From NCBI GenBank assembly GCA_027459745.1, contig DAIDHL010000001.1, positions 168,290-232,289 on the forward strand: a stretch of 64,000 bases of DNA. Reading direction: 5' to 3'. Source of the stretch: Candidatus Levyibacteriota bacterium. Lineage in GTDB: Bacteria > Patescibacteriota > Microgenomatia > Levybacterales > UBA12049. Under the pieces are notes generated by a model. That model saw only the letters and a program-made list of their open reading frames with translations, was not told the DNA's origin and did no database searches. The position numbers were made by a program, and so were the translations under genes. Positions 42,306 through 62,581 of the stretch are shown in pieces (position 1 is the first letter of the stretch; each line of letters opens with the position of its first letter).

Positions 42306-42314
42306 CCTGTTCGT

Positions 42315-42926: not shown

Positions 42927-42929
42927 TGG

Positions 42930-45348: not shown

Positions 45349-45349
45349 C

Positions 45350-47157: not shown

Positions 47158-47170
47158 ACTATAAATACTC

Positions 47171-48883: not shown

Positions 48884-48915
48884 CGATTAAGCTCTAAAAT
48901 CTTCTTCAGATCTCT

Positions 48916-48980
48916 TGACAATATGCTCATTACATCGTATTATATCCCTATAAGGGGGATATGCCCGCAAGGGGCATAAA
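48916..48980 (+). promoter_or_regulatory. promoter TTGACA-17-TATTAT with two adjacent GC-tract inverted repeats (ATATCCCtataaGGGGGATAT; TATGCCCgcaaGGGGCATA), CsoR-type operators (coordinates approximate)
   Basis: CCC-N-GGG pseudo-palindromes resembling known CsoR operators, immediately upstream of the CsoR-like gene. Confidence 0.5.
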
Positions 48981-48983: not shown

Positions 48984-49259
48984 ATGGCATATCGACCAAA
49001 AGACACTGAGGAAAGAATAACTCATCGTCTCAAAATAGCTCGCGGTCATTTAGATAAAGTTATTTCCATGATGGAAAATGATACCTATTGCATTGATGTA
49101 CTTCATCAAATTCAGGCAGTTGAGGGTGGATTAAAAGAAACCGGAAACCTCGTTCTAGAAAATCATTTAAAGTCTTGTGTAGCTGATGCTATTAGTAAAG
49201 GGAAAACAGAAGAAACAATTGCAGAGGTAATGGAAGTTTTTAGGAGAAAACAATCATGA
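48984..49259 (+). CDS. CsoR/RcnR/FrmR family metal-sensing repressor
   Basis: RLKIARGHLDKVISMMEND.YCIDVLHQIQAVEGGL...HL..C with C-H-C metal ligands. Confidence 0.75.
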   Translation: MAYRPKDTEERITHRLKIARGHLDKVISMMENDTYCIDVLHQIQAVEGGLKETGNLVLENHLKSCVADAISKGKTEETIAEVMEVFRRKQS

Positions 49260-50416
49260 ACATTATTTTCCATATACTAGAAGCATTAAAAATATCCCTT
49301 TATATGTTTTGGGAAGTATTATGGCCTCTTGTTTTAGGTTTTGCGCTTTCTGGAATTGTACAGGCTGTTGTATCTCATAAATCAATAGCAAAGCTACTGG
49401 GTAATGATTCACCAAAAAGTATTACCGTTGCTACACTGTTGGGTACAGCTTCAAGTTCTTGTTCATATGCTGCAATTGCTCTTGCACGGTCAATCTTTCA
49501 AAAAGGAGCAAGCTTTACATCTGCAATGGTATTTGAGCTTGCTTCAACAAATTTAGTTATTGAACTTGGAATTATTTTAGTCGTTTTGTTTGGATGGCAA
49601 TTTATGGCTGCCGAGTTTGTAGGCGGCATAATTATGGTAATTTTAATAGCCTTGATTTTCCGTTTTACTTTATCCCGACACTTAGTAGAAATAGCAAAGA
49701 AACAAGCTGAAAAAGGTTTGCAAGGAAGAATGGAAGGTCATGCTGCAATGGATATGAGCATAGAGTGGAAGGGCTCATTTATTTCAAAAATACTCAGTAA
49801 AAATGGCTTTACAACAGTTAGCCACTTTTACGTTATGGATTGGGCATCTGTCTGGACCGATATTGCACTTGGATTTTTGATTGCAGGGGCACTTGCTGCA
49901 TGGGTTCCACAATCTTTTTGGCAAGCATTTTTCTTAAAAGGTAACCCAACACTTGCAACAATTGAAGGACCTCTCGTTGGGCCATTGGTTGCTATTATTT
50001 CTTTTGTCTGTTCAGTTGGGAATGTACCTCTTGCAGCAGTGCTATGGAAAGGTGGAATAAGTTTTGGTGGGGTGGTAAGCTTTATTTTTGCTGATTTAAT
50101 TGTACTACCAGTGTTAGATATTTATCGCAAATATTATGGATGGAAGGTAATGAGCTATATTCTCATTACTTTTTACATCACTATGGCAGCTGCAGGATAT
50201 ATTATTGAATTCTTATTTAGCGCATTGCATGTTATCCCAACGGATCGAAATGTTGCTTTGATAACCCAAGGAGTTCACTGGAACTATACATCAATTCTTA
50301 ACATTATCTCCTTAATCATATCAGCTATTTTTATCTATCGCTTTTTTAAGACGAATGGAACTGCTATGCTTAAAATGATGAATATGTCTCTAAAGCAGAT
50401 GGAGCATCACCATTAA
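49256..50416 (+). CDS. DUF318/ArsP-like permease
   Basis: Polytopic; TLLGTASSSCSYAAIALA resembles the Cys-containing motif of this permease family. Confidence 0.55.
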   Translation: MNIIFHILEALKISLYMFWEVLWPLVLGFALSGIVQAVVSHKSIAKLLGNDSPKSITVATLLGTASSSCSYAAIALARSIFQKGASFTSAMVFELASTNLVIELGIILVVLFGWQFMAAEFVGGIIMVILIALIFRFTLSRHLVEIAKKQAEKGLQGRMEGHAAMDMSIEWKGSFISKILSKNGFTTVSHFYVMDWASVWTDIALGFLIAGALAAWVPQSFWQAFFLKGNPTLATIEGPLVGPLVAIISFVCSVGNVPLAAVLWKGGISFGGVVSFIFADLIVLPVLDIYRKYYGWKVMSYILITFYITMAAAGYIIEFLFSALHVIPTDRNVALITQGVHWNYTSILNIISLIISAIFIYRFFKTNGTAMLKMMNMSLKQMEHHH

Positions 50417-50454
50417 CTTAAAGGATTATAAAAGAATACTAAAGAAAATAATAT

Positions 50455-51498
50455 ATGAACCATTACAACATGCTTCTTAGTCATCTTGGTCTGGGCAAGT
50501 CTATGAATTCTATGGAGAAAGCATCATTCGAAGTTGCTTTGAAAGGTAAAAAACAAATAGCAGAAGGAATATATGAATTCGTTTTTGAAAAACCTAAGAA
50601 TTTTCATTTTAATGCAGGTCAGCATGTACGTATGACTCTTCTTAATCCTTCGGAAACTGATAAGAAGGGTAATAGCAGATTTCTAACACTAGCAAATACT
50701 CCACAAGATAAAGACCTTATTGTTGCTATGAGAATGACAGATTCGGCATTTAAGAGAGTTTTAGGAGAGATGCAAGTTGGAGAAAAAGTACTTATTCAAA
50801 TATTACTGCATAGTCCACATGGATCATTTGTAATATATGATGATCCCTCAATTCCTGCAGTATTTTTGGTAGGTGGAATTGGTATCGTTCCTGCTTACTC
50901 TATGATTAAAGACGCAATAGAAAGAAAGCTACAACACAAGATTTTCCTGTTCTATTCCAATAGACGACCAGAGGATGCTCCATATTTAGAAGAACTCCAA
51001 AATTTGGCAAAGCAAAATCCAAATTTCAAATTGATTGCAACTATGACAGAGCCGGAAAAATCAGCAAAATCATGGCAAGGACAAACGGGATATATAGATC
51101 AAGCCATGCTAAAGAATCATCTAAGTGATCTTAAATCTCCAATATACTATGAAGCTGGATTGACAAATATGGTAAATGCAATGAAAAAACTGCTTAAAGA
51201 TATAGGAATAAACGAAGACAGCATACATTCGGAAGATTTTTCTGGGCTTAAAATGGGGCTTATTAACATGACTAATAGTCCAACAGGAAATAAGAACCAT
51301 ATTTTGCTCATAGTAATCGCCTTGGTTTTACTAATCGTTATCGGTATACATGTTAGTATTGCTCTTTCAGTATATAAATCAATTTCTTTTAAAAGTATTT
51401 CTTATATTACGATAGGATTAATCCTTATCATTGTTATGTTTAAGGTCTTTGCTATATTCAAGTTCAAGCAGCATTTGTTAGATAGAAAGAATATATAA
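50455..51498 (+). CDS. FAD/NAD(P)-binding oxidoreductase (ferredoxin-NADP reductase-like) with C-terminal TM anchor
   Basis: FAD-binding beta-barrel (GQHVRMTL...SRFLTLAN), NAD-binding FLVGGIGIVPAYSMI, hydrophobic C-terminus. Confidence 0.6.
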   Translation: MNHYNMLLSHLGLGKSMNSMEKASFEVALKGKKQIAEGIYEFVFEKPKNFHFNAGQHVRMTLLNPSETDKKGNSRFLTLANTPQDKDLIVAMRMTDSAFKRVLGEMQVGEKVLIQILLHSPHGSFVIYDDPSIPAVFLVGGIGIVPAYSMIKDAIERKLQHKIFLFYSNRRPEDAPYLEELQNLAKQNPNFKLIATMTEPEKSAKSWQGQTGYIDQAMLKNHLSDLKSPIYYEAGLTNMVNAMKKLLKDIGINEDSIHSEDFSGLKMGLINMTNSPTGNKNHILLIVIALVLLIVIGIHVSIALSVYKSISFKSISYITIGLILIIVMFKVFAIFKFKQHLLDRKNI

Positions 51499-51504
51499 AA
51501 ATAT

Positions 51505-52128
51505 ATGATTACATATACTTGCCCTATGCATCCTGAAGTGCAGCAGGATCATCAAGGGAATTGTCCGAAATGCGGTATGAAGCTCGCGTCAAAAGGTCAA
51601 GCTGCAACAATGCAAATGGATCATTCTTCTGAAACACAGAATAGTTACAAGCCGCTTTTTATTATTATTGGTCTCATACTACTAACAACTATGGCTCTCG
51701 GTTTGAGAAGTTTATTGACAGAGCAGTTTAGTTGGTCTGTTGTCATGATTAATTTTATGGCTGGATTTTTCTTGGTGTTTAGTGGATTTAAACTGATTAA
51801 TATTACAGGTTTTGCAGAAGGATATTCAACATATGATTTACTTGCAAAAAGGGTATTTGCCTATGGATATATTTATCCATTTCTTGAGCTAATGCTTGGG
51901 CTTTTGTATGCCATGCATATTACACCACCACTAGTTAATCTTTTTACTTTTATTCTGATGGCATTTAGTGGCATAGGAGTTGCAATAAAAGTTGCAAAAC
52001 ATGAGAAATTCCAATGTGCATGCCTTGGTACATTTTTAAAAGTTCCACTTACTAAAGTAACTCTGATTGAGGATTTTGGTATGGCAGCAATGGCGCTCGT
52101 AATGGTTGTCCTACTTTTTAGACACTAA
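51505..52128 (+). CDS. heavy-metal-binding domain (YTCPMHPE...CPKCGM) fused to MauE/DoxX-like membrane domain
   Basis: N-terminal TCPMHPEVQQDHQGNCPKCGMKL HMBD; membrane domain with QCACLGTF. Confidence 0.6.
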   Translation: MITYTCPMHPEVQQDHQGNCPKCGMKLASKGQAATMQMDHSSETQNSYKPLFIIIGLILLTTMALGLRSLLTEQFSWSVVMINFMAGFFLVFSGFKLINITGFAEGYSTYDLLAKRVFAYGYIYPFLELMLGLLYAMHITPPLVNLFTFILMAFSGIGVAIKVAKHEKFQCACLGTFLKVPLTKVTLIEDFGMAAMALVMVVLLFRH

Positions 52129-52593
52129 AATTGAGATAGCATCTCCGGGTTTTAAAATATAATTCTCGTAGAGATTATTTGCTTTCCCATTGACTATCAC
52201 TTTCATGCTATATCGGTTGCCTATAAAATAAGCAGCAAACTGTGTCTTGTTAAATATTATTCCCCAAGTTGTAAATATATCACCGAGTGTAAAGGGAAAT
52301 GGTTTTAAATAATGGACATGTATTTGTCCGCTATGCCCATCATGAACTTGTATGGGATGTAAGCATCCATCTTCAATTCCGATAGTATCGGGAAGGCCAT
52401 ATTGAATTCCCAGTATGACTATTTTTAACATTACCATATAATGCAGCGTTGCCTTCTCCTCATCAATACATTGTGTAAGTACTGAAAGATGATCATTTTG
52501 ATATTGAGCAGATGAAGTTTTGGAAGAAAGATAGAAATCTCGTGCAAGGATTCCAATAAGGGCAAAGAACAAAATTACACAAATGTATTTCAT
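52111..52593 (-). CDS. secreted His-rich hypothetical protein
   Basis: Signal peptide; HPIQVHDGHSGQIHVHY. Confidence 0.4.
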   Translation of the reverse strand: MKYICVILFFALIGILARDFYLSSKTSSAQYQNDHLSVLTQCIDEEKATLHYMVMLKIVILGIQYGLPDTIGIEDGCLHPIQVHDGHSGQIHVHYLKPFPFTLGDIFTTWGIIFNKTQFAAYFIGNRYSMKVIVNGKANNLYENYILKPGDAISILVSKK

Positions 52594-52628: not shown

Positions 52629-52645
52629 TTCCTACAATATGTAGG
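52629..52645 (+). promoter_or_regulatory. palindrome TCCTACAATATGTAGGA abutting the blaI/copY-like start (TACA/TGTA-type box, coordinates approximate)
   Basis: 17-bp inverted repeat containing TACA...TGTA half-sites typical of BlaI/MecI/CopY operators. Confidence 0.45.
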
Positions 52646-53026
52646 ATGAAACAAAAAGAGTTAAGCCACTTAGAGCAAGAGGTCATGGATATAGTGTGGG
52701 AGTTAAAGCAAGCTTCTATCCGGGATGTTCTCAATAAAATTAGCAAGGATAGGCAGCTTGCTTACAATACTATTGGCACAATTCTTACTAGGCTAGAGAA
52801 TAAAGGGTTAGTAATAAAGAAAGAAGGTGACGGTTCTTACCTTTATAAGCCAAAAATTTCAAAAGAATCATATGGTAAAGCGATTATTGATGGTTTTATG
52901 CAGAGAGTGATACATTCATTTGGTAAAACCGCTATTTCCTCATTTGCAGAAAGTATTGATAAACTTCCTGTTGAGGAACGTGAGGAATTGTTACGAATGC
53001 TTGAAAAACATGATACAAATAAATAA
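52646..53026 (+). CDS. BlaI/MecI/CopY family repressor
   Basis: LSHLEQEVMDIVWELKQASIRDVLNKI...YNTIGTILTRLENKGLV winged helix. Confidence 0.75.
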   Translation: MKQKELSHLEQEVMDIVWELKQASIRDVLNKISKDRQLAYNTIGTILTRLENKGLVIKKEGDGSYLYKPKISKESYGKAIIDGFMQRVIHSFGKTAISSFAESIDKLPVEEREELLRMLEKHDTNK

Positions 53027-54002
53027 GAATCTACTCATTTTTCTCAGTCTTGCTGTTGGACTTGGAGTGGGTGTCTTAGCTGTTCTTACTAAATTTATCC
53101 CACTCTTTATAGATCACACCGTTTACTACTGCCAGCATCTCGTTGGCTTCTTTTCAATGGAATTTCCTCACCAGATTAGTTTAATTGTCATAGGATTTTT
53201 TAGTATTATACTTTTCGTAACAATACTGAGGATGAGTTGGCTATTTATTGAAGTACACTTATTAAAACGCCAATTGATACAATATAGCAGTAAAAAATTT
53301 CAATTAAATAGGTTGTTACAGCAATATAACTTACAAAATAAAGTCTATCTGATCGAAAATAACCGAACATTTGCCTTCTGCTTTGGTATTCTTAATCCTA
53401 AAATTTATATTTCAACAAATTTACTTTCACTGATGAATGAGAAAGAAATAGAAGCGGTACTACTGCATGAGAAATACCACTTAAAACATAGAGATAGTTT
53501 AACAATGCTCATTGCAACAGTATTACAACACCTTTTTCCATTTTTCCCATTATTTTCTGACTTAATCAGAAACTATAAAATTGAAAGAGAGATTGCAGCA
53601 GATCAACAGGCAATACAAACACTTGGTACAGCACAACCAGTAACCGCAGTATTAAAGAAATTATTATGCATTCCCACTCTTACACTTCCAACAGTTTCAG
53701 CTCTTGCAGAGTATGAAACACTAAGGCCAAGAATTAAAGCAATTGTTGGTGAGCAGTATTCATATATTCGATTTAGTAAAGCAAAAATGCTTATTAGTTT
53801 TTCCGCAGTTGTCGTGATTATCAGTATGCTTGTCGTTCCAGTTCACGCAATGGAAATTCACAACCATAAACAAGATGTAATGATGGTATGTTTGCAAAGT
53901 GGAGGTTGTGTAACTGCATGTACAGATAAAAACGCAAGCACTCCTTATACTGTTCCTTACTCAACAGATAATGCTTCACATCCTTATTCAGTTGCAAAAT
54001 AA
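53010..54002 (+). CDS. BlaR1/MecR1-like M56 peptidase-domain membrane sensor
   Basis: TM segments then LLHEKYHLKHRD (HExxH of M56); start re-picked at MIQINK (53010). Confidence 0.65.
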   Translation: MIQINKNLLIFLSLAVGLGVGVLAVLTKFIPLFIDHTVYYCQHLVGFFSMEFPHQISLIVIGFFSIILFVTILRMSWLFIEVHLLKRQLIQYSSKKFQLNRLLQQYNLQNKVYLIENNRTFAFCFGILNPKIYISTNLLSLMNEKEIEAVLLHEKYHLKHRDSLTMLIATVLQHLFPFFPLFSDLIRNYKIEREIAADQQAIQTLGTAQPVTAVLKKLLCIPTLTLPTVSALAEYETLRPRIKAIVGEQYSYIRFSKAKMLISFSAVVVIISMLVVPVHAMEIHNHKQDVMMVCLQSGGCVTACTDKNASTPYTVPYSTDNASHPYSVAK

Positions 54003-54052
54003 TTTCTCCTCTTGACTTTTGTATTTATATACTCCTACAATAAGTAGGAGGT

Positions 54053-54853
54053 ATGAGAAAAGCAAAAGAAGAAGTTATTAGACATCCTGGTGTCATTGAT
54101 CCAATAGAACCCACGCGTTTCAATTTGCGTATTCCTCGAAATATCAAAACAACGCCAATACTTGTAGTATTACTTATTATCGCTGCTTTCTTTTTGGGAA
54201 TGCTTACTACGAAAGTACAATATTTAGAAAAAGGGAATACTACGGTTGCTGGTGCTATTGCTCCAACACAAGCTGTTCAGGCAGGAAACCAACAACCACA
54301 ACCTACTCTTGGTAAACAAAATGTTGATAATGGACATTTTCCAGTAAAAGGCGATCCAAATGCAAAAGTAACAGTTATAGAATTTGGCGATTTTCGCTGT
54401 CCATTTTGTAAGAGATTCTTCACTGATGTTGAACCACAATTGCAAAAAGATTATATAGACACAGGCAAAGTAAAATTCTACTTCCGGCAGTACGCATTTT
54501 TAGGACCAGCATCAACAGTTGCGGCCAATGCTGCAGAGTGTGCGAATGAACAAAACAAATTCTGGGATTTTCATGATTACTTATATAAAAACCAGCCATC
54601 CGAAACTGATACGTCAATATACACTACAGATAATTTAACACAAATTGTAGGCAACCTCGGTATGGATACAGATCAATTTAGAACATGCTTAGATGGTAAA
54701 AAGTATGACAAAAATGTCAGTGATGATTTAGCTGCAGGACAAAAAGTAGGTGTCAATGCAACGCCAACTTTTTATATTGATGGTAATCAGCTTGTCGGTG
54801 CACAGCCTTATTCAGCGTTTCAAACAATTATAGATCAAGAGTTGAAGAAATAA
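54053..54853 (+). CDS. DsbA-family thiol-disulfide oxidoreductase, membrane anchored
   Basis: VTVIEFGDFRCPFCKRFF CxxC thioredoxin fold. Confidence 0.8.
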   Translation: MRKAKEEVIRHPGVIDPIEPTRFNLRIPRNIKTTPILVVLLIIAAFFLGMLTTKVQYLEKGNTTVAGAIAPTQAVQAGNQQPQPTLGKQNVDNGHFPVKGDPNAKVTVIEFGDFRCPFCKRFFTDVEPQLQKDYIDTGKVKFYFRQYAFLGPASTVAANAAECANEQNKFWDFHDYLYKNQPSETDTSIYTTDNLTQIVGNLGMDTDQFRTCLDGKKYDKNVSDDLAAGQKVGVNATPTFYIDGNQLVGAQPYSAFQTIIDQELKK

Positions 54854-54858
54854 TATGT

Positions 54859-55368
54859 ATGGTATCAATTCGAAAAATATTCCTGCCCACTATCGTTATT
54901 TCAGTTTTTTATATTCTCCTTTTTACGTACTTTCGTAACTTCAATCTTGTTAATACAACACTCATAAATAATACACCGATTCTCTATAAAATAAAGCTGT
55001 TTTCTATCCTTATTGAAGGACTTTCCTCAACGATGACTCAAGTGGGTTTACTTTTAATGTTTCTGACCGGATTTCTAATAGGGTTAAATCTAACGCTGAT
55101 GTTTCAAAAAGTCGCATTTTTAAAACAAGCGGGATCTGTAAAGTTTGTTGCAGGTGGCAGTTCTTTTTTTGGAGTAATTAGCGGAGGCTGTGCATCTTGT
55201 GGGCTGCCTGTTCTATCTCTATTTGGATTAAGTGGCGCAGTTGCTTATCTTCCTTTTAAAGGTGTTGAATTACCATATATTTCTCTTATCCTCCTTTCTG
55301 CATCACTGTTTTTCTTATTACGAAATAAAACCCAACTGCAAGTCTGCGAAGTCAAAAAGACAAAATGA
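54859..55368 (+). CDS. membrane protein with GGCASCG motif
   Basis: 4 predicted TM helices; CxxC in a Gly-rich loop. Confidence 0.4.
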   Translation: MVSIRKIFLPTIVISVFYILLFTYFRNFNLVNTTLINNTPILYKIKLFSILIEGLSSTMTQVGLLLMFLTGFLIGLNLTLMFQKVAFLKQAGSVKFVAGGSSFFGVISGGCASCGLPVLSLFGLSGAVAYLPFKGVELPYISLILLSASLFFLLRNKTQLQVCEVKKTK

Positions 55369-56336
55369 AAAAACATTCAATTTTACTGCCTAAATCAAGA
55401 GTACGCTTAGTAGCGATAGTCTTTATTTTGCTACCACTCTTTATCGTTGGATTATATTATGTACGTTCAGCACCTTCTGTCCAAAAAACAGCAATAAATC
55501 TTGCTTATGATACAAGAAAAATTCCAGTTGTTGGACATCTCATTCCTCTTTCCTGGTTACCAAAACGAGATGTTGCCGAAGAGGTATTACCTAAAGAAGG
55601 ATTTCAAACACAAATTATACTTGGCGATGTCATTCCAAAAATGGTGAAAGTTGGTGTTATTGATCCAGCAAAGATTGAAGATTTGTACAAAAACGACAAG
55701 AGTACACAACAACAAATTAAGCAATTGCTTTCTCAATCATCAAATGCACCCCTTACAATTAACTCAAGTAATACCTTATGGTTATTAAATCTTCTCTGGC
55801 CGTTAGGACTTGCAAACAAAATGAAAGTGAATGAGCAAAGCCAAGTTGCTGGTGCAGACGTTAATAACTTTGCTTCAACTGGTGGGTGGACACTTGGAAA
55901 AGCAGACAGTGGCGGTGGATATTTTAATAAATACCAAATACTTCCATTAACTTCGCAGCAAGAACAAAGAGTAAAAACGATTGCTGATACAATTCATAGG
56001 CCATGTTGTAATAATTCTGCTTTTTTCCAAGACTGCAATCATGGTTCTGCAATGCTCGGACTTGTAGAGCTTGGAGTAAAAGAAGGATTATCAGATGAAG
56101 AGATCTACAAAACTGCGCTTGCATTTAACTCATTCTGGTTTCCGCAAAACTATATGGAAACGGCATTGTATTTTGAGAAAGTAAAAGGGCAAGATTGGGA
56201 AGAAATTGATTCCAAATTGATTTTATCAAAGCAATACTCGAGTATTAGTGGATGGATGGCAAATGTTGATACGGTTGCTCGAAAAACACCTGGTCTAATA
56301 CCAACTACACAAAATGGTGGTAGTTGTGCGGTATAG
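55365..56336 (+). CDS. membrane-anchored Cys-rich exported protein (PCCNNSAFFQDCNHG)
   Basis: N-terminal TM, extracytoplasmic domain with CC...C motifs; paralogous motifs in next gene. Confidence 0.45.
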   Translation: MKKHSILLPKSRVRLVAIVFILLPLFIVGLYYVRSAPSVQKTAINLAYDTRKIPVVGHLIPLSWLPKRDVAEEVLPKEGFQTQIILGDVIPKMVKVGVIDPAKIEDLYKNDKSTQQQIKQLLSQSSNAPLTINSSNTLWLLNLLWPLGLANKMKVNEQSQVAGADVNNFASTGGWTLGKADSGGGYFNKYQILPLTSQQEQRVKTIADTIHRPCCNNSAFFQDCNHGSAMLGLVELGVKEGLSDEEIYKTALAFNSFWFPQNYMETALYFEKVKGQDWEEIDSKLILSKQYSSISGWMANVDTVARKTPGLIPTTQNGGSCAV

Positions 56337-56367
56337 TTTTTCGGTATAATAACTGATGTAAAATTAC

Positions 56368-57063
56368 TTGTATATGAAACGTCAACAAATTCTTATAGGG
56401 ATTGTTCTAATTGCTACAGTAGCATTAGGATACTTTGTGCTTAATCCATCAGCACTTATTTCACTCATAAATCCAAATAATCCAGATGTGGTACATGCGC
56501 AATTACTTTCTACCTATAACTCAATTCCTACCTCATCTGGAAAGAACGCATTTTTGAAACAAAGTAATAATCTGACCACAAAAGTTGATACGGAATTAGC
56601 AGATTTAGATAGCGAAATTATTTCTTGTGACGCAAATGTTGATAATCTCATGTCTACTGGTAGTATTGGTGGCAGTTGTGTAGGTGGTGGTACAACGTTG
56701 CCAACTGCAAAAGGAAAGTTCTTAGGTGGACAATGCTGTGGAGCCATGACTACTACCAAAGATTATCATGCGCAACTACAGAAGTTGCAGGTATATAAAA
56801 ATATTCCAGATATGCCTCTAAATCCCTATAAAACGCCAGTAGAATTAGCAAAAAAATGGATTGATGTTGATAAATCAACAACCTTATCAGCAGACCAGCA
56901 AAAAGTCTTTAATCAAGCATTAAGCATGTCAAAGGAAGGGCCATGTTGCTGTAAGTGTTGGCATTATTATGTGAATGAAGGGATTGCAAAAAAGATGATT
57001 CAAGATAACGGGTGGACTGGACAACAAGTTGCACAATTTTGGGATAATTCTAGTATTTGCTAA
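56368..57063 (+). CDS. membrane-anchored Cys-rich exported protein (GQCCGAM; GPCCCKCWHYY)
   Basis: N-terminal TM, CC motifs similar to 55365-56336. Confidence 0.45.
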   Translation: MYMKRQQILIGIVLIATVALGYFVLNPSALISLINPNNPDVVHAQLLSTYNSIPTSSGKNAFLKQSNNLTTKVDTELADLDSEIISCDANVDNLMSTGSIGGSCVGGGTTLPTAKGKFLGGQCCGAMTTTKDYHAQLQKLQVYKNIPDMPLNPYKTPVELAKKWIDVDKSTTLSADQQKVFNQALSMSKEGPCCCKCWHYYVNEGIAKKMIQDNGWTGQQVAQFWDNSSIC

Positions 57064-57098
57064 AAATCTTTACTATACTACGTCTTGTAGGAACTGTT

Positions 57099-58055
57099 AT
57101 GAAAAAATCATTACCAATTATTGTTATCGTTGTTCTTGTAATCATTGGGATTATCTATATTACAACAAAAAATAGTAGTAATTCCAATATGCAAGGAATG
57201 CATATGATGAATGGCAGTAGCATGCAGGGTATGGATATGGGCGATAAGCAGTCAGCAGCCCAAAGCAATCGAACCTACACCTACACACTCCAATTAACAT
57301 CTTCAACAAGTAATTTACAACCGAATCAACAGACGACAATCACTTATAAAATTGTAGACGATCAAGGGAATATTTTAAAAGATTATGCTCTTGACCATAC
57401 AAAATTAATGCATTTTATTGTTGTGAGAAAAGATTTACAGGATTTTCAACATATTCATCCTGATTTCAATAAGAACACAGGTGAGTTTCGTATTCCTGTT
57501 ACCTTTCCGGAGATAGGGACATATCGGTTATTTGCCGATTTTACACCTGCAAATGGGCAAAAAGATGCACAAGGTGATATTTTAAGTGTTACGCCATATA
57601 AAGATGTAAATGTGGGAGACATCACAAAATATACACCGCAAGCAGTAACACCTGATACCCAGACAATAAAAACAGTAGGAGACTTTCAAATCACCTATAC
57701 GCTTCCACAACCGTTACAGGCAAACAAGTCCGCTACTATCACAGCTCACGTAACTAAAAACGGACAACCTGTTACTGATATGCAAGAATATTTAGGGGCA
57801 TTAGCACACGGTATTTTACTCAAACAAGACACATTAGATTTTGCTCATTTACACGATATGGGGCAAATGGGGAGTGGTAGTATGCAAGGAATGAGCATGC
57901 AGAACATGAATACAGGCAATGCTAAAATAACCAATACGGGTCCTAATATTACCTTTACCTATTCATTTCCTTCAAGTGGGGTATATAAACTCTTTACGCA
58001 ATTTGAAGAACAAGGTAACGTGATAACAACAGACTATACAATGCAGGTGCAATAA
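57099..58055 (+). CDS. Met/His-rich exported protein, putative Cu-binding
   Basis: Signal/TM MKKSLPIIVIVVLVII; MQGMHMMNGSSMQGMDMGD and HLHDMGQMGSGSMQGMSMQNM Met-motifs; start re-picked at 57099. Confidence 0.5.
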   Translation: MKKSLPIIVIVVLVIIGIIYITTKNSSNSNMQGMHMMNGSSMQGMDMGDKQSAAQSNRTYTYTLQLTSSTSNLQPNQQTTITYKIVDDQGNILKDYALDHTKLMHFIVVRKDLQDFQHIHPDFNKNTGEFRIPVTFPEIGTYRLFADFTPANGQKDAQGDILSVTPYKDVNVGDITKYTPQAVTPDTQTIKTVGDFQITYTLPQPLQANKSATITAHVTKNGQPVTDMQEYLGALAHGILLKQDTLDFAHLHDMGQMGSGSMQGMSMQNMNTGNAKITNTGPNITFTYSFPSSGVYKLFTQFEEQGNVITTDYTMQVQ

Positions 58056-58090: not shown

Positions 58091-58864
58091 ATGAACAAAT
58101 TTTCTTCTTCACCTGTCACGCATCACATTGCAACTAAAGTTCCAGAGATCACTCTCATCTTTTGGATTATTAAACTACTCTCTACTGCGATGGGTGAATC
58201 AACCACTGACTATTTTGTTTACCAATTTAATCCCTACATTATTGTAGTACTTGGATTTATTGGCTTGGCCGCTGCGCTTACATTACAATTTTTTAGACGT
58301 CGTTATATTGCATGGATTTATTGGTTAACAATTGTCATGGTTGCCATATTTGGAACAATGGCAGCAGATGTTGCACATATTGTCATAGGAGTGCCCTATT
58401 TTATATCGACACTATGTTTTTCACTAGTACTTGGTATCGTTTTCTTCTCTTGGTATTTCAGTGAAAAAACACTATCTATCCATAGTATCTATACACGCCG
58501 AAGAGAATTGTTTTATTGGGCAACGGTTATGGCAACATTTGCTCTTGGTACCGCTGCAGGTGATATGACTGCTTCAACGCTGCACTTAGGATACTTTTCA
58601 TCATTTATTATATTTGTCATATTGTTTGCTCTCCCCGCTGTAGCATATAAGCTATTTGGGTTAAATGAGATTATTGCTTTTTGGTTTGCCTATGTCATCA
58701 CCCGACCACTCGGTGCGACATTTGCCGATTGGTTAGGAAAATCAATTCTCGGTGGTCTTGGAATAGGTGATGGAAAAGTAGCTTTGGTATTGACGATATT
58801 AATTATTATTTTTGTTGGCTATGTGACAGTCACAAAAACTGATGTAGATAATATGAAACTATAG
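58091..58864 (+). CDS. polytopic membrane protein, function unknown
   Basis: About 7 hydrophobic segments with internal duplication. Confidence 0.45.
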   Translation: MNKFSSSPVTHHIATKVPEITLIFWIIKLLSTAMGESTTDYFVYQFNPYIIVVLGFIGLAAALTLQFFRRRYIAWIYWLTIVMVAIFGTMAADVAHIVIGVPYFISTLCFSLVLGIVFFSWYFSEKTLSIHSIYTRRRELFYWATVMATFALGTAAGDMTASTLHLGYFSSFIIFVILFALPAVAYKLFGLNEIIAFWFAYVITRPLGATFADWLGKSILGGLGIGDGKVALVLTILIIIFVGYVTVTKTDVDNMKL

Positions 58865-59884: not shown

Positions 59885-59970
59885 AGCTGGGATAAATGAA
59901 CACTAGGAATTTTAATTATAACATGAGTTTATAAAACAATGATTATCTTGGATAAAACAAAGGAGGAGGA

Positions 59971-60198
59971 TCAGAAGGGAATCAAGTCTTTTATCTTCAC
60001 TCCCAAAACTTGCGAAATCTTATACATCGTCTCAAAGGCAGGGAAGTTATATCCTGCTTCAATATATGCAATAGACGTTAAGGCTAATCCCGCTCTTTCT
60101 GCAAGCTGTTCTTGGGTTAACCCTTTCTCTTTTCTCAACTTCTGAATATGTCTTCCCAACGTTTGCCGCATATTATTTAGTTTAGTATCATTACTCAT
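59971..60198 (-). CDS. XRE-family HTH regulator
   Basis: LRKEKGLTQEQLAERAGLALTSIAYIEAG; C-terminus similar to the XRE at 33989-34213. Confidence 0.8.
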   Translation of the reverse strand: MSNDTKLNNMRQTLGRHIQKLRKEKGLTQEQLAERAGLALTSIAYIEAGYNFPAFETMYKISQVLGVKIKDLIPF

Positions 60199-60230
60199 AC
60201 TTACAGGCTAACATAATCAGCGGGAAAATC

Positions 60231-60303
60231 TATTAGTCTATGACTAATAATGCATCTTGACAACCTGCAAACTTTGAGGCAATATATTAGTCATAGACTA
60301 ATA
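60231..60303 (+). promoter_or_regulatory. divergent switch region: two 19-bp palindromes TATTAGTC-TAT-GACTAATA (60231-60249) and TATTAGTC-ATA-GACTAATA (60285-60303) flanking TTGACA (60257-60262) -35
   Basis: Both palindromes perfect; second overlaps the -10 of the rightward promoter. Confidence 0.6.
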
Positions 60304-60306
60304 AGT

Positions 60307-60651
60307 ATGGAGCTATATCTAGAAGATATTGTATGGGGGAATAGGCTGTACGTTAACGCACAGTTTACAGTTACATTTGTATCATTGCTTCAAAAGTATG
60401 CGCAAGGGAAAATTCCTCTCGCCTACTTCTTTTCTTATGCTCATGCTATAAAAATGCAACGAAAAATCATACTTTATAAAGATTTAGCCAGACAAATAGA
60501 TGAGATTACTACTCTTGAAGATCTCATTAAGACAGGAAAGGTAACTCTTCGTGATGTTCGTGTGATCCACTACATTATAAATCGGGTGTATATCCAGCTT
60601 ACAGGAGCCCCCTTAGACTTTGTAAGAACTTCTAACGATACATTATCTTAA
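60307..60651 (+). CDS. hypothetical protein (114 aa) downstream of the XRE-controlled promoter
   Basis: ORF track starts at 60250 but that overlaps the promoter; internal ATG 60307. Confidence 0.45.
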   Translation: MELYLEDIVWGNRLYVNAQFTVTFVSLLQKYAQGKIPLAYFFSYAHAIKMQRKIILYKDLARQIDEITTLEDLIKTGKVTLRDVRVIHYIINRVYIQLTGAPLDFVRTSNDTLS

Positions 60652-60681
60652 TCCCTACCTCTGTTAAGGGCTGCGCCCCTC

Positions 60682-60776
60682 TTTTGCAAGGGTATATAAA
60701 CGAAGTCGTTGCTTCGCCCTTGCAAAATTCACCCTGCTATTGCATCGCAGGTATAGGAAGCAGGCAGGCTGCTTCC
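60682..60776. other. GC-rich non-coding segment with three consecutive hairpins, candidate oriT or structured RNA
   Basis: TTTTGCAAGGG...(nested CGAAG/CTTCG)...CCCTTGCAAAA; CCTGC-9-GCAGG; GGAAGCAG-5-CTGCTTCC. Confidence 0.35.
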
Positions 60777-60821
60777 TAAAAAATATTTTCAAATATACGC
60801 AGCCAGAAAGGGGTGAATAAA

Positions 60822-61160
60822 ATGAATCCAGTAATTACAGCAGATTTCTCACAATTTGGTATACGAGAACTGACCTTTGCACAGCTATTACTCAAAGCAT
60901 ATGCAGAAAGAGGTGCCGATTTTTTAGGGTGTGGGTTAACAGTCAATTTCAATACACACAGTGGGTATGTTTTCTTATCGGATGAAGATTACAACGTTGG
61001 TGTACTCGATGAAACAGAAGAATACATCGTGCAATTTTACTCATGCCCACAATGTGGCTATGAAGGGACACAACAAGAAGCAGTGGATAATGGCTGTGAC
61101 TTCGTTAAAAACGACGGGTACTGTTCGAAAAAATGCTACGAGCGTGAGTGGAGTTGTTAA
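60822..61160 (+). CDS. Cys-rich small protein with zinc-ribbon-like CPQCG...C..C
   Basis: ATG 60822 after GGGG Shine-Dalgarno; ORF track starts at GTG 60813. Confidence 0.45.
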   Translation: MNPVITADFSQFGIRELTFAQLLLKAYAERGADFLGCGLTVNFNTHSGYVFLSDEDYNVGVLDETEEYIVQFYSCPQCGYEGTQQEAVDNGCDFVKNDGYCSKKCYEREWSC

Positions 61161-61669
61161 AAAAATTCTGCCCACCTGCCCATAATATTATTTGACAATC
61201 TACCAGCAGAACAATATACTGAGGTTATTATCATGGAGAATGGCGAACAATCAGAACAACGGCCACAACAATTTCAGGAATACGGAGACGTAAACCTCCT
61301 GATGACCAATGGAGTAATATAACTATTACTCGCCCACTACGTGGAGGCAAGACAGAACAGATAGAACTTCGGTTCCCTTTACGACTACAGAACTAGATAC
61401 CATAAATGCAGCCAGACAAGCGAGGGATACACTTGCGGATGAAGCATTAGCAGGAAGTGGTCATGTGCGAACTTTTTATACCCAGGAATCAATACCGCAA
61501 GGCTATTCACTGCAAGATAGATCAAGTGCAGTACAATCAATGCGAAAAGCCGCAATGTATGCAGCAACACTTCTTGATCGACCTGGCATTTCAAACCCAT
61601 CAAGGGCAACATTGACGACAGTAGTTGATACACTGCAGCCATTCCTTGCTCCTAAGAAGGGATAAATAG

Positions 61670-62434: not shown

Positions 62435-62581
62435 AGAGTTTATTAAAATATATCTGTTTGTGAGTCCATTTCGATCCTCTTATATACTATATAAGAATAA
62501 GAAGGATGTATTTCTCATAAAAATAGATTCAAAACCAACAAATTTATGTACCCACACGTAGGTACAATTCGTCGGTACTAT

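What the first reader, a model, noticed from the sequence alone, without database searches (positions are those of the whole stretch)
54053..58055. Cluster of DsbA, a CxxC membrane protein, two paralogous Cys-cluster exported proteins and a Met/His-rich protein
A DsbA-like oxidoreductase (CPFC) is followed by a 4-TM protein with GGCASCG. Two membrane-anchored exported proteins follow, sharing unusual vicinal-cysteine motifs (RPCCNNSAFFQDCNHGSAM; GQCCGAMTT and GPCCCKCWHYY). After them comes a secreted protein with repeated MQGM/HxH Met-His motifs of the kind seen in Cu(I)-binding CopC/PcoC/CusF-like proteins. CC/CCC motifs in exported proteins are rare and suggest metal(loid) or thiol chemistry. 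The whole set sits downstream of CsoR- and CopY-like regulators. It may be an undescribed extracytoplasmic metal-handling or disulfide system.
Basis: partly seen in the sequence, partly recalled or inferred. Interest (0 to 1): 0.6.

Follow-up and report, generated by a model that had tools for sequence, protein, structure and literature searches.

The report
Thiol-rich copper/mercury envelope defence operon
A mobile-element operon encodes a DsbA-type oxidoreductase, a new four-helix membrane protein with a CxxC motif, and two new exported cysteine-cluster proteins. The same unannotated proteins recur in hundreds of microbial species inside copper and mercury resistance gene clusters, so they probably form an undescribed thiol-based system for handling these toxic metals outside the cell.

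Summary
The 4-TM protein, "Cys3" (55365-56336) and "Cys4" (56368-57063) match nothing in Pfam, NCBIfam or the PDB, yet each is a large conserved family. Cys3 relatives occur in 427 species-level genomes: Patescibacteria, Proteobacteria and archaea.

In 57 of 80 genomes the 4-TM module is fused to the Cys3 domain. Stand-alone 4-TM genes sit directly after DsbA, and Cys4 follows. Neighbours are CopA, CsoR, multicopper oxidase, SCO, CcdA and TlpA. In CPR genomes the order is ArsR-Cys4-[4TM-Cys3]-MerA. On rhizobial plasmids it is ScsC-CcdA-Cys4-like.

In the window a 15-nt palindrome precedes both blaI and dsbA. This places the genes under a BlaI/BlaR1-type pair whose sensor tail is Cys-rich.

Best reading: an Scs/CueP-like, redox-maintained set of thiolate proteins that bind Cu(I) or Hg(II) on the outer membrane face. 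The main rival is a Mer-like thiolate relay that imports metal.

- Paralogy holds at most for a C-terminal CC…Cx(H/R) module.
- The regulator is BlaI-like, not CopY.
- The Met/His protein is YtkA-like, not CopC/CusF.

No experiment exists, so function is inferred.

The parts
48984..49259 (+). CsoR/RicR-type metal-sensing repressor. It is the first gene of the neighbouring operon, which runs CsoR, ArsP_1 permease, FNR-like reductase, HMBD-MauE.
   Evidence: Pfam Trns_repr_metal E 1.1e-24. The best NCBIfam hit is RicR, below its cutoff. Cys, His and Cys are present at the Cu(I)-ligand positions by inspection. A strong promoter-like site lies at 48915-48943 (11 of 12 matches).
49256..52128 (+). 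The rest of the CsoR operon: ArsP_1/SO_0444-like permease (49256-50416), FNR-like NAD-binding reductase with C-terminal TM helices (50455-51498), and an HMBD-MauE membrane protein (51505-52128).
   Evidence: Pfam ArsP_1 E 1.2e-72, NAD_binding_1 E 2.4e-19, HMBD E 7e-14 plus MauE E 6e-12. NCBIfam SaoE and SO_0444 Cu/Zn efflux hits fall below their cutoffs.
52111..52593 (-). orf160: a membrane-anchored exported protein with His motifs. It belongs to an unannotated family that recurs next to Cys3 and Cys4.
   Evidence: No Pfam or NCBIfam hit. Homologues occur in 16 of 80 Cys3-anchored loci and 18 of 80 Cys4-anchored loci.
52631..52645 (.). Operator-like palindrome CCTACAATATGTAGG, immediately 5' of the blaI ATG.
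   Evidence: The pattern CCTACAATANGTAGG has two exact matches in the 64-kb window, this one and 54034-54048; both match the 15-nt pattern with 0 mismatches (they differ at its variable tenth base). Even allowing up to 2 mismatches, the chance expectation is 0.26.
52646..53026 (+). BlaI/MecI-family winged-helix repressor with no cysteine.
   Evidence: Pfam Penicillinase_R E 3.2e-26.
52920..54002 (+). BlaR1-like M56 membrane metalloprotease (HEKYH). A short extracellular Cys/His/Met tail replaces the penicillin-binding sensor domain. The real start is probably near 53007.
   Evidence: Pfam Peptidase_M56 E 4.5e-19. The tail motif M-x-C-x5-C-x3-C is invariant in the window, L001 and L011 proteins.
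54012..54048 (+). Promoter-like site TTGACT-18-TACAAT, overlapped at its -10 box by the second copy of the palindrome (54034-54048, CCTACAATAAGTAGG), 5' of dsbA.
54053..54853 (+). Membrane-anchored DsbA/BdbD-type thiol-disulfide oxidoreductase with CPFC.
   Evidence: Pfam Thioredoxin_4 and DSBA. The closest solved relative is B. subtilis BdbD (E 1.4e-29); ScsC-type proteins score 2e-8 to 2e-7. It has a single N-in TM anchor.
54859..55368 (+). 4-TM membrane protein of a new family. It has CxxC in TM3 near the outer face, an invariant Glu in the TM3-TM4 loop, and an invariant Cys at the cytoplasmic end of TM4.
   Evidence: No Pfam or NCBIfam hit. Invariant residues are C111, C114, E137 and C163. 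A profile search finds 1791 50%-identity clusters at E<=1e-3. It is fused to the Cys3 domain in 57 of 80 genomes and lies directly after DsbA in 25 of 48 cases.
55365..56336 (+). Cys3: a membrane-anchored exported protein of a new family. Invariant residues are C214, C215, C224, H226 and the near-C-terminal C321.
   Evidence: At least 1823 homologues, none annotated. Relatives occur in 427 species genomes. The AF2 model of the fused form has pLDDT 86.4, with a less confidently modelled C-terminal tail. No PDB fold match was found.
56368..57063 (+). Cys4: a membrane-anchored exported protein of a second new family, with QCC, PCCC-x-CW and a C-terminal Cys.
57057..58055 (+). Membrane-anchored tandem YtkA-like protein. 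It has conserved H-x4-H…H-x-H motifs and lineage-specific Met-rich inserts. The likely start is 57099.
   Evidence: Pfam YtkA scores 27.3 bits against a cutoff of 25.9, but no single stretch passes. The family has 377 or more members, all called hypothetical.
58091..58864 (+). DUF347 membrane protein, the last gene on this strand before a convergent polysaccharide deacetylase. Whether it belongs to the system is uncertain.
   Evidence: Pfam DUF347 E 3.2e-44. No homologue was found in the related loci.

Best explanation
**What it is.** This is the copper-type version of a widespread, horizontally mobile module that defends the cell envelope against soft metals.

**Shown.**
- The genes blaI, blaR1-like, dsbA, 4TM, cys3, cys4, the Met/His gene and DUF347 form one tight gene string.
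- The same palindromic operator precedes both blaI and dsbA.
- The 4-TM, Cys3 and Cys4 proteins are three conserved, unannotated families that travel together, and with DsbA, inside Cu and Hg resistance clusters.

**Inferred mechanism.**
- The BlaR1-like protease senses thiol-reactive metal or disulfide stress outside the cell through its Cys-rich tail. It then inactivates the BlaI repressor.
- The induced Cys3 and Cys4 proteins are anchored on the outer face of the membrane. They bind Cu(I), or Hg(II) in mer-linked relatives, through their vicinal-Cys / Cx(H/R) sites and their near-C-terminal Cys.
- The DsbA-type oxidoreductase and the 4-TM CxxC protein form the thiol-redox pair that keeps those cysteines in the working state. 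The 4-TM protein acts as the membrane conduit. It occupies the genomic place that CcdA/ScsB holds in rhizobial ScsC-CcdA-Cys4-like clusters, and it links a cytoplasmic Cys to the outer CxxC.
- The His-motif, Met-rich YtkA-like protein adds Cu binding.
- The adjacent CsoR operon deals with cytoplasmic copper.

**Closest functional parallel.** The logic matches the ScsB -> ScsC -> CueP axis.
For: - **Operon and operator:**
- **Sensor tail:** Cys motif conserved in three BlaR1-like proteins.
- **Fusion:** 4TM and Cys3 are one polypeptide in 57 of 80 species genomes. A second kind of CC…CxH domain is also fused to 4TM and is homologous to the Cys3 C-terminal module (hhalign probability 95.7%, E 8.9e-9).
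- **DsbA link:** the gene after DsbA is stand-alone 4TM in 25 of 48 cases and Cys4 in 11 of 48. DsbA-4TM-Cys4 triads also occur in an archaeal (Nitrosotalea) contig.
- **Copper context:**
  - CopA in 24/80 and 18/80 loci, plus CsoR, cupredoxin, MCO, TlpA and CcdA.
  - Hyphomicrobiaceae locus: MCO, DUF411, SCO, DoxX, cytochrome c, Cys3, DsbA.
  - Burkholderia and Paraburkholderia plasmid Cu islands.
  - Sinorhizobium plasmids: MCO, DUF411, SCO, DsbA-family protein with a Pfam ScsC_N domain, CcdA, Cys4-like.
- **Mercury context:** ArsR-Cys4-[4TM-Cys3]-MerA operons. MerA passes the TIGR02053 cutoff and ends in KLSCC.
- **Extracytoplasmic topology:**
- **Metal-binding hints:** the near-C-terminal Cys lies in a tail modelled with lower confidence, and mercury-linked Cys4 relatives end in His-rich tails.
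Against: - No experiment has been done, and no metal-binding or redox measurement exists.
- I could not read model coordinates, so which cysteines are close in space is unknown.
- The window's DsbA is nearest to the oxidase BdbD, not to the reductase/isomerase ScsC. An oxidising DsbA would tend to close metal-binding thiols.
- The 4-TM protein shares no detectable homology with CcdA, DsbB or VKOR. CcdA took the place of 4TM directly after DsbA only once among my 48 DsbA genes, although it does so on the rhizobial plasmids.
- Cys3 is about 50% identical across phyla, with many invariant polar and aromatic residues. That looks more like an enzyme than a passive binder.
- The window itself has no CopA or MerA.
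Confidence: 0.45

Rival explanations
1. **Mer-like metal relay (import).** Cys4 would play the part of MerP and 4TM(+Cys3) the part of MerT or MerC.

Hg(II) or Cu(I) would pass by thiolate ligand exchange along this route:
- from the exported Cys clusters and the near-C-terminal Cys tail,
- to the membrane CxxC,
- to the cytoplasmic Cys (and, in fused forms, the Cys pair and the N-terminal Cys4 zinc-ribbon-like domain),
- and on to MerA or cytoplasmic copper chaperones.
For: - In at least 7 CPR species genomes the two genes sit exactly where transport genes sit in a mer operon: ArsR-Cys4-[4TM-Cys3]-MerA, with gaps of -8, +2 and +46 to +63 nt.
- ArsR-type mer operons are reported to correlate inversely with all known mer transport genes (PMC3466566).
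- Vicinal Cys pairs and a C-terminal Cys arm resemble MerA. MerA's vicinal carboxy-terminal pair is described. The MerT and MerF pairs are from my own knowledge.
- A cytoplasmic Cys after TM4 is invariant, with CxxC or Cx4C in fused forms. Fused forms also carry an N-terminal CPxC…CxxWC domain.
Against: - Import makes little sense for copper-linked clusters, and the window has no MerA.
- DsbA adjacency and CcdA replacement point to electron transfer rather than metal transfer.
- Proteobacterial Cys3 and Cys4 homologues work without any 4TM.
- There is no homology to MerT, MerC, MerF or MerP.
Confidence: 0.25
2. **Generic oxidative protein folding.** DsbA plus the 4-TM protein would be a DsbA/DsbB-like (BdbD/BdbC-like) disulfide-forming pair. 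Cys3 and Cys4 would simply be disulfide-rich exported clients or structural proteins with no specific metal role.
For: - DsbA is BdbD-like.
- The 4-TM gene holds the position of bdbC or dsbB.
- It has 4 TM helices with a CxxC near the outer face.
Against: - There is no DsbB or VKOR homology, and the second extracytoplasmic Cys pair is absent.
- At least one genome with this module also has a bona fide DsbB elsewhere.
- The module is cargo of mobile elements, next to CopA, CsoR, MCO or MerA rather than housekeeping genes.
- It is placed under its own stress-type regulator.
- Vicinal CC/CCC motifs, Cx(H/R), His tails and a Cys near the C terminus are atypical for purely structural disulfides.
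Confidence: 0.1
3. **Cys3 as an extracytoplasmic enzyme.** Cys3 would be, for example, a Cu(II)/Cu(I) or Hg-thiol oxidoreductase, a sulfhydryl oxidase, or a persulfide- or sulfur-transfer enzyme. Its CC / C-x-H site would be catalytic, and electrons would be wired through the fused 4-TM CxxC module. Cys4 would be its substrate or a carrier.
For: - Conservation is very high, with many invariant Asn, Trp, Tyr and Gly motifs over about 250 residues.
- Cys224 sits at the N-terminus of a helix, and the near-C-terminal Cys lies in a tail modelled with lower confidence.
- Cytochrome c lies next to or fused with these genes in two cases.
- Rhodanese occurs in 17 of 80 loci.
Against: - No cofactor motif or fold relative was found.
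- Proteobacterial homologues lack the 4-TM partner.
- The cytochrome c fusion has an impossible topology and may be a gene-calling error.
Confidence: 0.12

Closest known systems
Scs copper-tolerance system and CueP (ScsB membrane reductant conduit -> ScsC DsbA-like protein -> Cys-containing periplasmic Cu protein)
   Same: - A DsbA-family protein, a membrane thiol protein and an exported Cys-bearing protein are encoded together in copper-resistance contexts.
- On Sinorhizobium plasmids a DsbA-family protein with the Pfam ScsC_N domain and a CcdA directly precede a true Cys4-family member.
- The window's DsbA matches solved ScsC proteins at E 2e-8 to 2e-7.
- Dependence of CueP on reduced cysteines is stated in the abstract of PMC4546943.
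   Different: - The membrane partner here is a 4-TM, 3-Cys protein unrelated in sequence to ScsB, DsbD or CcdA.
- The Cys proteins are unrelated to CueP.
- The window's DsbA is closer to the oxidase BdbD.
- Regulation is by BlaI/BlaR1, not CpxR/CueR.
Mercury transport proteins MerP / MerT / MerC / MerF
   Same: - The genes hold the same operon position between the regulator and merA in CPR genomes.
- They rely on Cys pairs in or at the membrane plus cytoplasmic Cys.
- MerC and MerH also have four TM helices (PMC3466566).
   Different: - No sequence similarity.
- The CxxC is in TM3, not TM1.
- The exported partners are 200-320 aa proteins with no fold relative in the PDB, not a 70-aa ferredoxin-like MerP.
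- Most family members are linked to copper genes, not to merA.
DsbA-DsbB / BdbD-BdbC / VKOR disulfide-forming pairs
   Same: - DsbA is followed by a small 4-TM protein with a CxxC near the outer face.
- The DsbA is BdbD-like.
   Different: - There is no DsbB or VKOR homology.
- The second external Cys pair is absent, and an invariant cytoplasmic Cys is present instead.
CcdA-TlpA-SCO pathway (periplasmic thioredoxins that keep copper-chaperone cysteines reduced)
   Same: CcdA, TlpA and SCO genes are recurrent neighbours of Cys3 and Cys4. The principle is the same: reductant is delivered to Cu-binding thiols.
   Different: Cys3 and Cys4 are not thioredoxin-fold or SCO proteins. The role of TlpA as reductant of ScoI is from my own knowledge and was not tested here.
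BlaI/BlaR1 (MecI/MecR1) signal transduction; CopY
   Same: - A winged-helix Penicillinase_R repressor is paired with an M56 HExxH membrane protease.
- A palindromic operator with TACA…TGTA-like half sites overlaps the -10 box.
   Different: - The sensor has no penicillin-binding domain. It has a tail of about 55 residues carrying a conserved M-x-C-x5-C-x3-C motif.
- The repressor lacks CopY's C-terminal CxC…CxC motif.
CopG (DUF411), a periplasmic Cu-cluster protein with a CxCC motif
   Same: It is an exported protein with vicinal cysteines in copper-resistance islands. DUF411 genes are neighbours of Cys3 and Cys4 in Proteobacteria.
   Different: There is no homology. The CopG cluster chemistry is recalled from the literature (my own knowledge) and was not tested here.

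Membership tests
DsbA / Thioredoxin_4 (gene 54053-54853) | Thioredoxin-fold DsbA domain above the Pfam threshold, with an active-site CxxC | tested here: met
   Thioredoxin_4 138.8 bits (cutoff 23.2) and DSBA 69.6 bits (cutoff 25.6). CPFC is present. BdbD E 1.4e-29.
ScsC (for the window's DsbA) | ScsC_N N-terminal domain, or closest similarity to ScsC | tested here: not met
   No ScsC_N hit for the window protein. ScsC structures rank far below BdbD. The rhizobial neighbour of Cys4-like does carry ScsC_N.
DsbB / VKOR (4-TM protein) | Pfam DsbB or VKOR match, and two extracytoplasmic Cys pairs (CxxC plus a loop pair) | tested here: not met
CcdA / DsbD_TM (4-TM protein) | Pfam DsbD_TM match. The expected 6 TM helices with single Cys in TM1 and TM4 are from my own knowledge. 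| tested here: not met
   No DsbD_TM hit. The protein has 4 TM helices. True CcdA genes in neighbouring loci do hit DsbD_TM.
MerT / MerC / MerF / MerP | Pfam MerT, MerC or HMA match. The expected Cys pair in TM1 is from my own knowledge. | tested here: not met
   No hits for the 4-TM, Cys3 or Cys4 proteins. A genuine MerT and an HMA protein in L001 are detected by the same resource.
CopC / PcoC / CusF (Met/His protein) | Pfam CopC or CusF domain match | tested here: not met
   Pfam lists only YtkA (27.3 bits) and a spurious tudor hit at E<=0.01. No PDB relative was found.
YtkA-like (Met/His protein) | Pfam PF13115 above the gathering score | tested here: inconclusive
   The whole-protein score is 27.3 against a cutoff of 25.9, but no single stretch passes. 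Homologues score between 18 and 28 bits.
CsoR | Trns_repr_metal domain plus Cys-His-Cys Cu(I) ligands | tested here: met
   Pfam 87 bits (cutoff 22.8). The C…H…C positions are present by inspection. The NCBIfam RicR equivalog cutoff is not reached (53 against 175), so the subtype is open.
CopY | BlaI-family DNA-binding domain plus a C-terminal CxCx4-5CxC metal site | tested here: not met
   The Penicillinase_R domain is present, but the protein contains no cysteine.
BlaR1 / MecR1 | M56 protease domain with HExxH, and a C-terminal penicillin-binding sensor domain | tested here: not met
   The M56 domain and HEKYH are present. The protein is 360 aa and has no transpeptidase domain. NCBIfam blaR1_generic scores 49.6 against a cutoff of 400. 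It is an M56 relative with a different sensor.
MerA (gene after 4TM-Cys3 in L043 and similar loci) | TIGR02053 equivalog score, a redox-active CxxxxC and a C-terminal vicinal Cys pair | tested here: met
   470.7 bits against a cutoff of 454.45. GGTCVNVGC and KLSCC[IV] are present. The criteria follow PMC3466566.
Cys3-Cys4 paralogy | Significant sequence or profile similarity between the two families | tested here: inconclusive
   Direct comparisons give BLASTP E 0.027 and hhalign E 0.093 and 0.037. Through a third 4TM-fused family, third versus Cys3 gives E 8.9e-9 and third versus Cys4 gives E 5e-4 with probability 32%. This covers the C-terminal module only.

The most novel reading that the evidence does not exclude
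The 4-TM CxxC protein, together with the CC…Cx(H/R) module proteins (Cys3, Cys4 and a third fused type), would be a previously unrecognised class of transmembrane thiol relay.

- It would work independently of DsbB, VKOR, CcdA and MerT.
- It would carry soft metals (Hg(II), Cu(I)) and/or reducing equivalents across the membrane.
- It would be the missing uptake or hand-off route of ArsR-type mer operons in CPR bacteria and archaea.
Probability: 0.3. Interest if true: 0.85.

Novelty: new variant of a known kind. Interest (0 to 1): 0.7.

Why it matters
- **Size of the gap.** Three protein families have no Pfam, NCBIfam or PDB counterpart and no mention in the literature I could search. Yet they are common: 427 species genomes for Cys3 and about 1800 50%-identity clusters for the 4-TM module.
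- **Where they sit.** They lie inside copper and mercury resistance islands of CPR bacteria, archaea and plant- or soil-associated Proteobacteria, often on mobile elements.
- **What they could explain.**
  - How organisms without known Mer transporters or Scs proteins protect or use their envelope thiols under metal stress.
  - How ArsR-type mer operons obtain Hg(II).
  - How small-genome CPR bacteria run extracytoplasmic thiol chemistry.
- **Testability.** Homologues exist on plasmids of culturable Burkholderia, Paraburkholderia and Sinorhizobium, so the question can be tested directly.

Tried and rejected
- **Sequence annotation.** Pfam and NCBIfam scans of the 4-TM, Cys3 and Cys4 proteins found nothing, including 16 family members of the 4-TM protein at E<=5.
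- **Solved structures by sequence.** Profile searches against PDB sequences found nothing meaningful.
- **Fold searches.**
  - Foldseek against the PDB gave no hit better than E 0.15.
  - The afdb50 library was not available.
- **Direct paralogy.** Tests between Cys3 and Cys4 were not significant.
- **Cop box.** The canonical CopY/BlaI box TACANNTGTA is not near the operon. The real palindrome has a 3-nt spacer. It is absent from all other fetched loci, so it cannot be generalised.
- **Look-ups that gave little.** The exact-sequence look-up of the window's own Cys3 returned no contig. Cluster look-up gave no names or organism. Contexts of two 4-TM representatives were on contigs too short to help.
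- **Cytochrome c - 4TM fusion (P0312).** I considered it as evidence for electron transfer, then discounted it because its topology is inconsistent.
- **CstR-type sensor.** I considered that CsoR might be a CstR-type persulfide sensor, given the rhodanese neighbours. I rejected this for the window protein because the Cu-type Cys-His-Cys positions are present by inspection.
- **Literature.** Searches found no description of these families.

Full report
**1. Observation**

The ORFs and motifs are exactly as described.
- DsbA (54053-54853) carries CPFC.
- A 169-aa protein (54859-55368) carries GGCASCG.
- Cys3 (55365-56336) carries RPCCNNSAFFQDCNHGSAM.
- Cys4 (56368-57063) carries GQCCGAM and GPCCCKCWHYY.
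- A Met/His-rich protein (57057-58055) follows, then DUF347 (58091-58864).

The genes are nearly contiguous. Cys3 overlaps the 4-TM gene by 4 nt.

Pfam confirms several assignments:
- DsbA: Thioredoxin_4, E 2.5e-40.
- A BlaI-family repressor (52646-53026).
- An M56 BlaR1-like protease (about 53007-54002).
- A CsoR (48984-49259), followed by an ArsP_1 permease, an FNR-like reductase and an HMBD-MauE protein.

The 4-TM, Cys3 and Cys4 proteins match no Pfam or NCBIfam family.

Hydropathy plus the positive-inside rule gives one N-in anchor for DsbA, Cys3, Cys4 and the Met/His protein. It gives four helices for the CxxC protein, with both ends inside. The cysteine motifs are therefore predicted to be extracytoplasmic. 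This is a heuristic, not a dedicated predictor.

**2. The three unknown proteins are real, large families**

*Cys3*
- At least 1823 relatives were found in the protein collection. Among the 120 best, which are the ones listed, none carries a Pfam domain and the only names given are "hypothetical".
- Relatives occur in 427 of the species-representative genomes scanned.
- Most are Patescibacteria/CPR. Others are Hyphomicrobiaceae, Geminicoccaceae, Acidiferrobacteraceae, Rhodothermia, Nanoarchaeia and a Methanobacteriota MAG.
- CC-x8-CxH is present in all 120 listed homologues, and nearly all also end in G-x-x-C-[GS]-x.
- In a 40-sequence alignment C214, C215, C224, H226 and C321 are invariant, along with many Asn, Trp, Tyr and Gly positions.

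*Cys4*
- At least 324 relatives were found.
- In the window's subfamily nine Cys and H199 are invariant.
- Across subfamilies, including rhizobial plasmid proteins, seven stay invariant: CC, CCC-x-C and the C-terminal Cys. The His is replaced by Arg, and the tail becomes GCGG…HHH.

*4-TM protein*
- C111 and C114 (the CxxC), E137 and C163 are invariant. C163 lies at the cytoplasmic end of TM4.
- A profile search over 1.84 billion representatives found 1791 clusters at E<=1e-3 and 801 at E<=1e-10. Most are stand-alone proteins of 150-220 aa.

*Structure*
- AlphaFold2 models are confident: pLDDT 86.4 and pTM 0.73 for a natural fusion (P0047), and pLDDT 93.2 for the window's Cys4.
- Neither model has a convincing fold relative in the PDB.
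- In the fusion model the CxxC sits at a helix break in TM3. Cys224 sits at the N-terminus of a helix. The near-C-terminal Cys lies in an unstructured tail where confidence falls to pLDDT 58-80.

**3. The parts belong together**

- Longer Cys3 homologues are fusions. They consist of a cytoplasmic CPxC…CxxWC zinc-ribbon-like domain, the 4-TM CxxC module, a cytoplasmic Cys pair, a fifth TM helix and the Cys3 domain.
- In 80 species genomes the Cys3 domain is fused to the 4-TM module in 57.
- The 4-TM module is also fused to a third kind of Cys domain, C-x2-CCG…CGC-x-HA…FFPKNMVETA. One member ends in …MVGGC.
  - This domain is homologous to the C-terminal module of Cys3: hhalign probability 95.7%, E 8.9e-9.
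  - It is marginally similar to that of Cys4: probability 32%, E 5e-4.
- Direct Cys3-Cys4 comparisons are not significant.
- "Paralogous" is therefore at best true for a short CC…Cx(H/R)-helix module. What is solid is that such modules are tied to the 4-TM CxxC protein.

**4. Gene neighbourhoods**

*Cys3-anchored genome loci*
- The commonest core is Cys4 immediately upstream of the fused 4TM-Cys3 gene. Cys4 is present in 36 of 80 loci.
- Recurrent neighbours:

| Neighbour | Loci (of 80) |
|---|---|
| CopA | 24 |
| Rhodanese | 17 |
| DsbA | 16 |
| orf160-like | 16 |
| Small "c10" membrane protein | 14 |
| CcdA | 13 |
| CsoR | 11 |
| ArsR | 10 |
| TlpA | 7 |
| Cupredoxin | 6 |
| MCO | 4 |

*Cys4-anchored metagenome loci*
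- The dominant order is c10-DsbA-4TM-Cys4(-orf160)…CopA.
- Counts over 80 loci: DsbA 40, 4TM 29, CopA 18, CsoR 6, MerA none.

*Both sets together.* The gene directly after a full-length DsbA is a stand-alone 4-TM gene in 25 of 48 cases and Cys4 in 11. Every stand-alone 4-TM gene in the genome set follows DsbA.

*Individual loci*
- An archaeal (Nitrosotalea) contig has CopA…DsbA-4TM-Cys4…YtkA.
- A Hyphomicrobiaceae contig has MCO, DUF411, SCO, DoxX, cytochrome c, Cys3 and DsbA.
- L001 and L011 repeat the window's BlaI-BlaR1-DsbA arrangement beside the Cys genes. L001 also has a classical merA-merT-HMA set next door.
- L149 shows ArsP_1 permease-BlaI-BlaR1-DsbA-4TM-Cys4, as in the window.

**5. 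Mercury-linked variant**

- In at least seven CPR species genomes the order is ArsR-Cys4-[4TM-Cys3]-MerA, with gaps of -8, +2 and +46 to +63 nt.
- The reductase passes the NCBIfam MerA equivalog cutoff (470.7 against 454.45) and ends in KLSCC[IV]. This meets the MerA criteria listed in PMC3466566.
- That paper also reports an inverse correlation between ArsR-type mer operons and all known transport genes.
- CPR MerA lineages are known (PMC8261052), but the text I read mentions no transport partners.
- The Cys4 proteins of these operons form the CWR…GCGG…EHHH subfamily. The window belongs to the CWH subfamily that travels with DsbA and copper genes.

**6. Cultured hosts and the Scs parallel**

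- Cys3 homologues (38-42% identity) lie on plasmids of Burkholderia thailandensis, B. contaminans and Paraburkholderia fungorum.
- There they sit in islands with DUF411, a DsbD-domain protein, CcdA, TlpA, SCO, cytochrome c, P-type ATPases, HMA proteins and MerR-type regulators.
- Cys4-family proteins lie on Sinorhizobium, Ensifer and Microvirga plasmids in the order MCO, DUF411, SCO, DsbA-family, CcdA, Cys4-like.
- That DsbA-family protein carries the Pfam ScsC_N domain (33.8 bits, cutoff 25.8), and the CcdA hits DsbD_TM.
- So where CPR bacteria and archaea have DsbA-4TM-Cys4, rhizobia have ScsC-CcdA-Cys4-like.
- I read this as non-orthologous replacement of a membrane thiol conduit. This is an inference, and it is the main reason I rank the redox-maintenance model first.

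**7. Regulation in the window**

- The 15-nt palindrome CCTACAATA(T/A)GTAGG occurs exactly twice in 64 kb. One copy abuts the blaI start codon (52631-52645). The other overlaps the -10 box of a TTGACT-18-TACAAT site before dsbA (54034-54048).
- The BlaI protein has no Cys, so it is not a CopY.
- The M56 partner has HEKYH and lacks a penicillin-binding domain. It ends in an extracellular tail whose M-x-C-x5-C-x3-C motif is invariant in the three examples compared.
- Inferred: this tail senses thiol-reactive metal or disulfide stress and triggers proteolytic derepression.
- The canonical cop box TACANNTGTA is not used.

**8. The Met/His protein**

- It belongs to a family of at least 377 unannotated proteins.
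- The family has two YtkA-like Ig-type domains with weak Pfam support.
- The conserved features are His motifs: H-x4-H…FQH-x-HP, and YLGA-x-x-H…H-x-H.
- The MQGM stretches fall in gaps in most homologues. They are a lineage-specific addition consistent with Cu(I) binding.
- The protein is not a CopC, PcoC or CusF member.
- It is only loosely associated with the Cys proteins elsewhere.

**9. Context**

- The cluster is cargo of a conjugative or integrative element.
- Flanking genes include a TraG P-loop/VirB4-like ATPase, a type IV coupling protein, a serine recombinase, an M23 peptidase and a GmrSD-like nuclease.
- Two Replic_Relax paralogues are present (33% identity, E 2e-40).
- The window contains no CopA or MerA.

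**10. Mechanism and ranking**

| Model | Confidence |
|---|---|
| Scs/CueP-like: DsbA and the 4-TM conduit keep the thiolate sites of Cys3 and Cys4 functional so they capture Cu(I) (or Hg(II) in relatives) on the outer membrane face, under BlaI/BlaR1-type control | 0.45 |
| Mer-like thiolate relay that moves metal inward, favoured by the ArsR…MerA operons and the cytoplasmic Cys features | 0.25 |
| Cys3 as a redox enzyme | 0.12 |
| Generic DsbA/DsbB-type folding pair | 0.10 |

The broader statement is that this is a thiol-based soft-metal envelope system built from three undescribed families. I hold that at about 0.75.

Nothing here is experimental. I could not inspect model coordinates, so the geometry of the Cys sites remains unknown.

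**11. Novelty**

- The components are not members of any family I could test (see the membership table).
- Five of the literature searches, plus reading two mer reviews, turned up no description.
- The working principle resembles known kinds (Scs, Mer transport, CcdA-TlpA-SCO). I therefore file it as a new variant of a known kind, with a 0.3 chance that it is a truly new class of transmembrane thiol relay.

Noticed in passing
window 34696-48883 and 59900-63979: The metal cluster is cargo of a conjugative or integrative element. Genes include GmrSD_N+HEPN nuclease, serine recombinase, PLDc_2, M23 peptidase, TraG P-loop/VirB4-like ATPase, a type IV coupling protein and YibE/F. Two Replic_Relax-type paralogues lie at 37179-37958 and 61670-62434 (33% identity, E 2e-40), which may mean two adjacent elements.
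   Followed up: partly
window 52111-52593 (- strand): orf160 is an exported protein with His motifs (…HPIQVHDGHSGQIHVH…). It belongs to an unannotated family that sits next to Cys3 or Cys4 in 16/80 and 18/80 related loci. Its 3' end overlaps the end of the HMBD-MauE gene by 18 nt.
   Followed up: partly
L043 6504-10388; also L036, L046, L049, L058, L073, L082: CPR genomes carry tight ArsR-Cys4-[4TM-Cys3]-MerA operons with no known mer transport gene. The Cys4 proteins there form a distinct subfamily (CCCKCWR…GCGG…EHHH).
   Followed up: yes
L061 5424-5837 and 13 other loci (family 'c10'): A small unannotated membrane protein opens many c10-DsbA-4TM-Cys4 clusters. It has the motif SCPF…MCxM…H…WQ and a C-terminal GILxPKIY. 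It is absent from the window, where BlaI-BlaR1 take that position.
   Followed up: no
proteins P0383, P0272, P0282; L088 107-1604: A third Cys domain (C-x2-CCG…CGC-x-HA) is fused to the 4-TM module. P0383 and the product of the gene after it both end in …MVGGC. Cys3 and Cys4 also have a conserved Cys within a few residues of the C terminus (…GGSCGx; …IC or …ICGx), so a Cys at or near the C terminus is a recurring, unexplained theme.
   Followed up: partly
L169 8925-9491, L170 7072-7689, L171 7421-8005: Methyltransferase genes sit beside the Cys proteins in cultured hosts. A class I SAM methyltransferase lies next to Cys3 on Burkholderia and Paraburkholderia plasmids. An ICMT-family (isoprenylcysteine carboxyl methyltransferase) gene lies next to Cys4-like on Sinorhizobium pSinB. 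A methyltransferase cluster also appears in 5 CPR loci. Any link to the conserved C-terminal Cys is speculation.
   Followed up: no
protein P0312: One ORF joins a cytochrome c domain to the 4-TM module. The predicted topology would put the haem domain in the cytoplasm, so it may be a miscalled fusion of adjacent genes. A cytochrome c gene also precedes Cys3 in L004.
   Followed up: partly
window 57077-57091: A third, weaker copy of the operator-like palindrome (2 mismatches) lies just 5' of the probable ATG (57099) of the Met/His protein. It may be chance.
   Followed up: no
window 57057-58055: The public gene call for this protein (P0394, 288 aa) starts after the TM anchor. Homologues of 296-324 aa cover the anchor, so the longer start at 57099 is more likely.
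   Followed up: partly
window 50455-52128: The CsoR operon holds two unusual architectures: an FNR-like NAD-binding reductase with two C-terminal TM helices, and a heavy-metal-binding domain (HMBD) fused to a MauE/DoxX-type membrane protein. HMBD-MauE homologues recur in 8 of 80 Cys3 loci.
   Followed up: no
L087 1-363: A stand-alone 4-TM gene in a short metagenome contig follows a gene that looks like DUF302 by eye, not a DsbA. The DsbA link is therefore not universal across the roughly 1800 4-TM clusters.
   Followed up: no
window 226-297: tRNA-Gly(CCC) is the only tRNA gene in the window. It lies far from the element, and its relation to any integration site was not examined.
   Followed up: no
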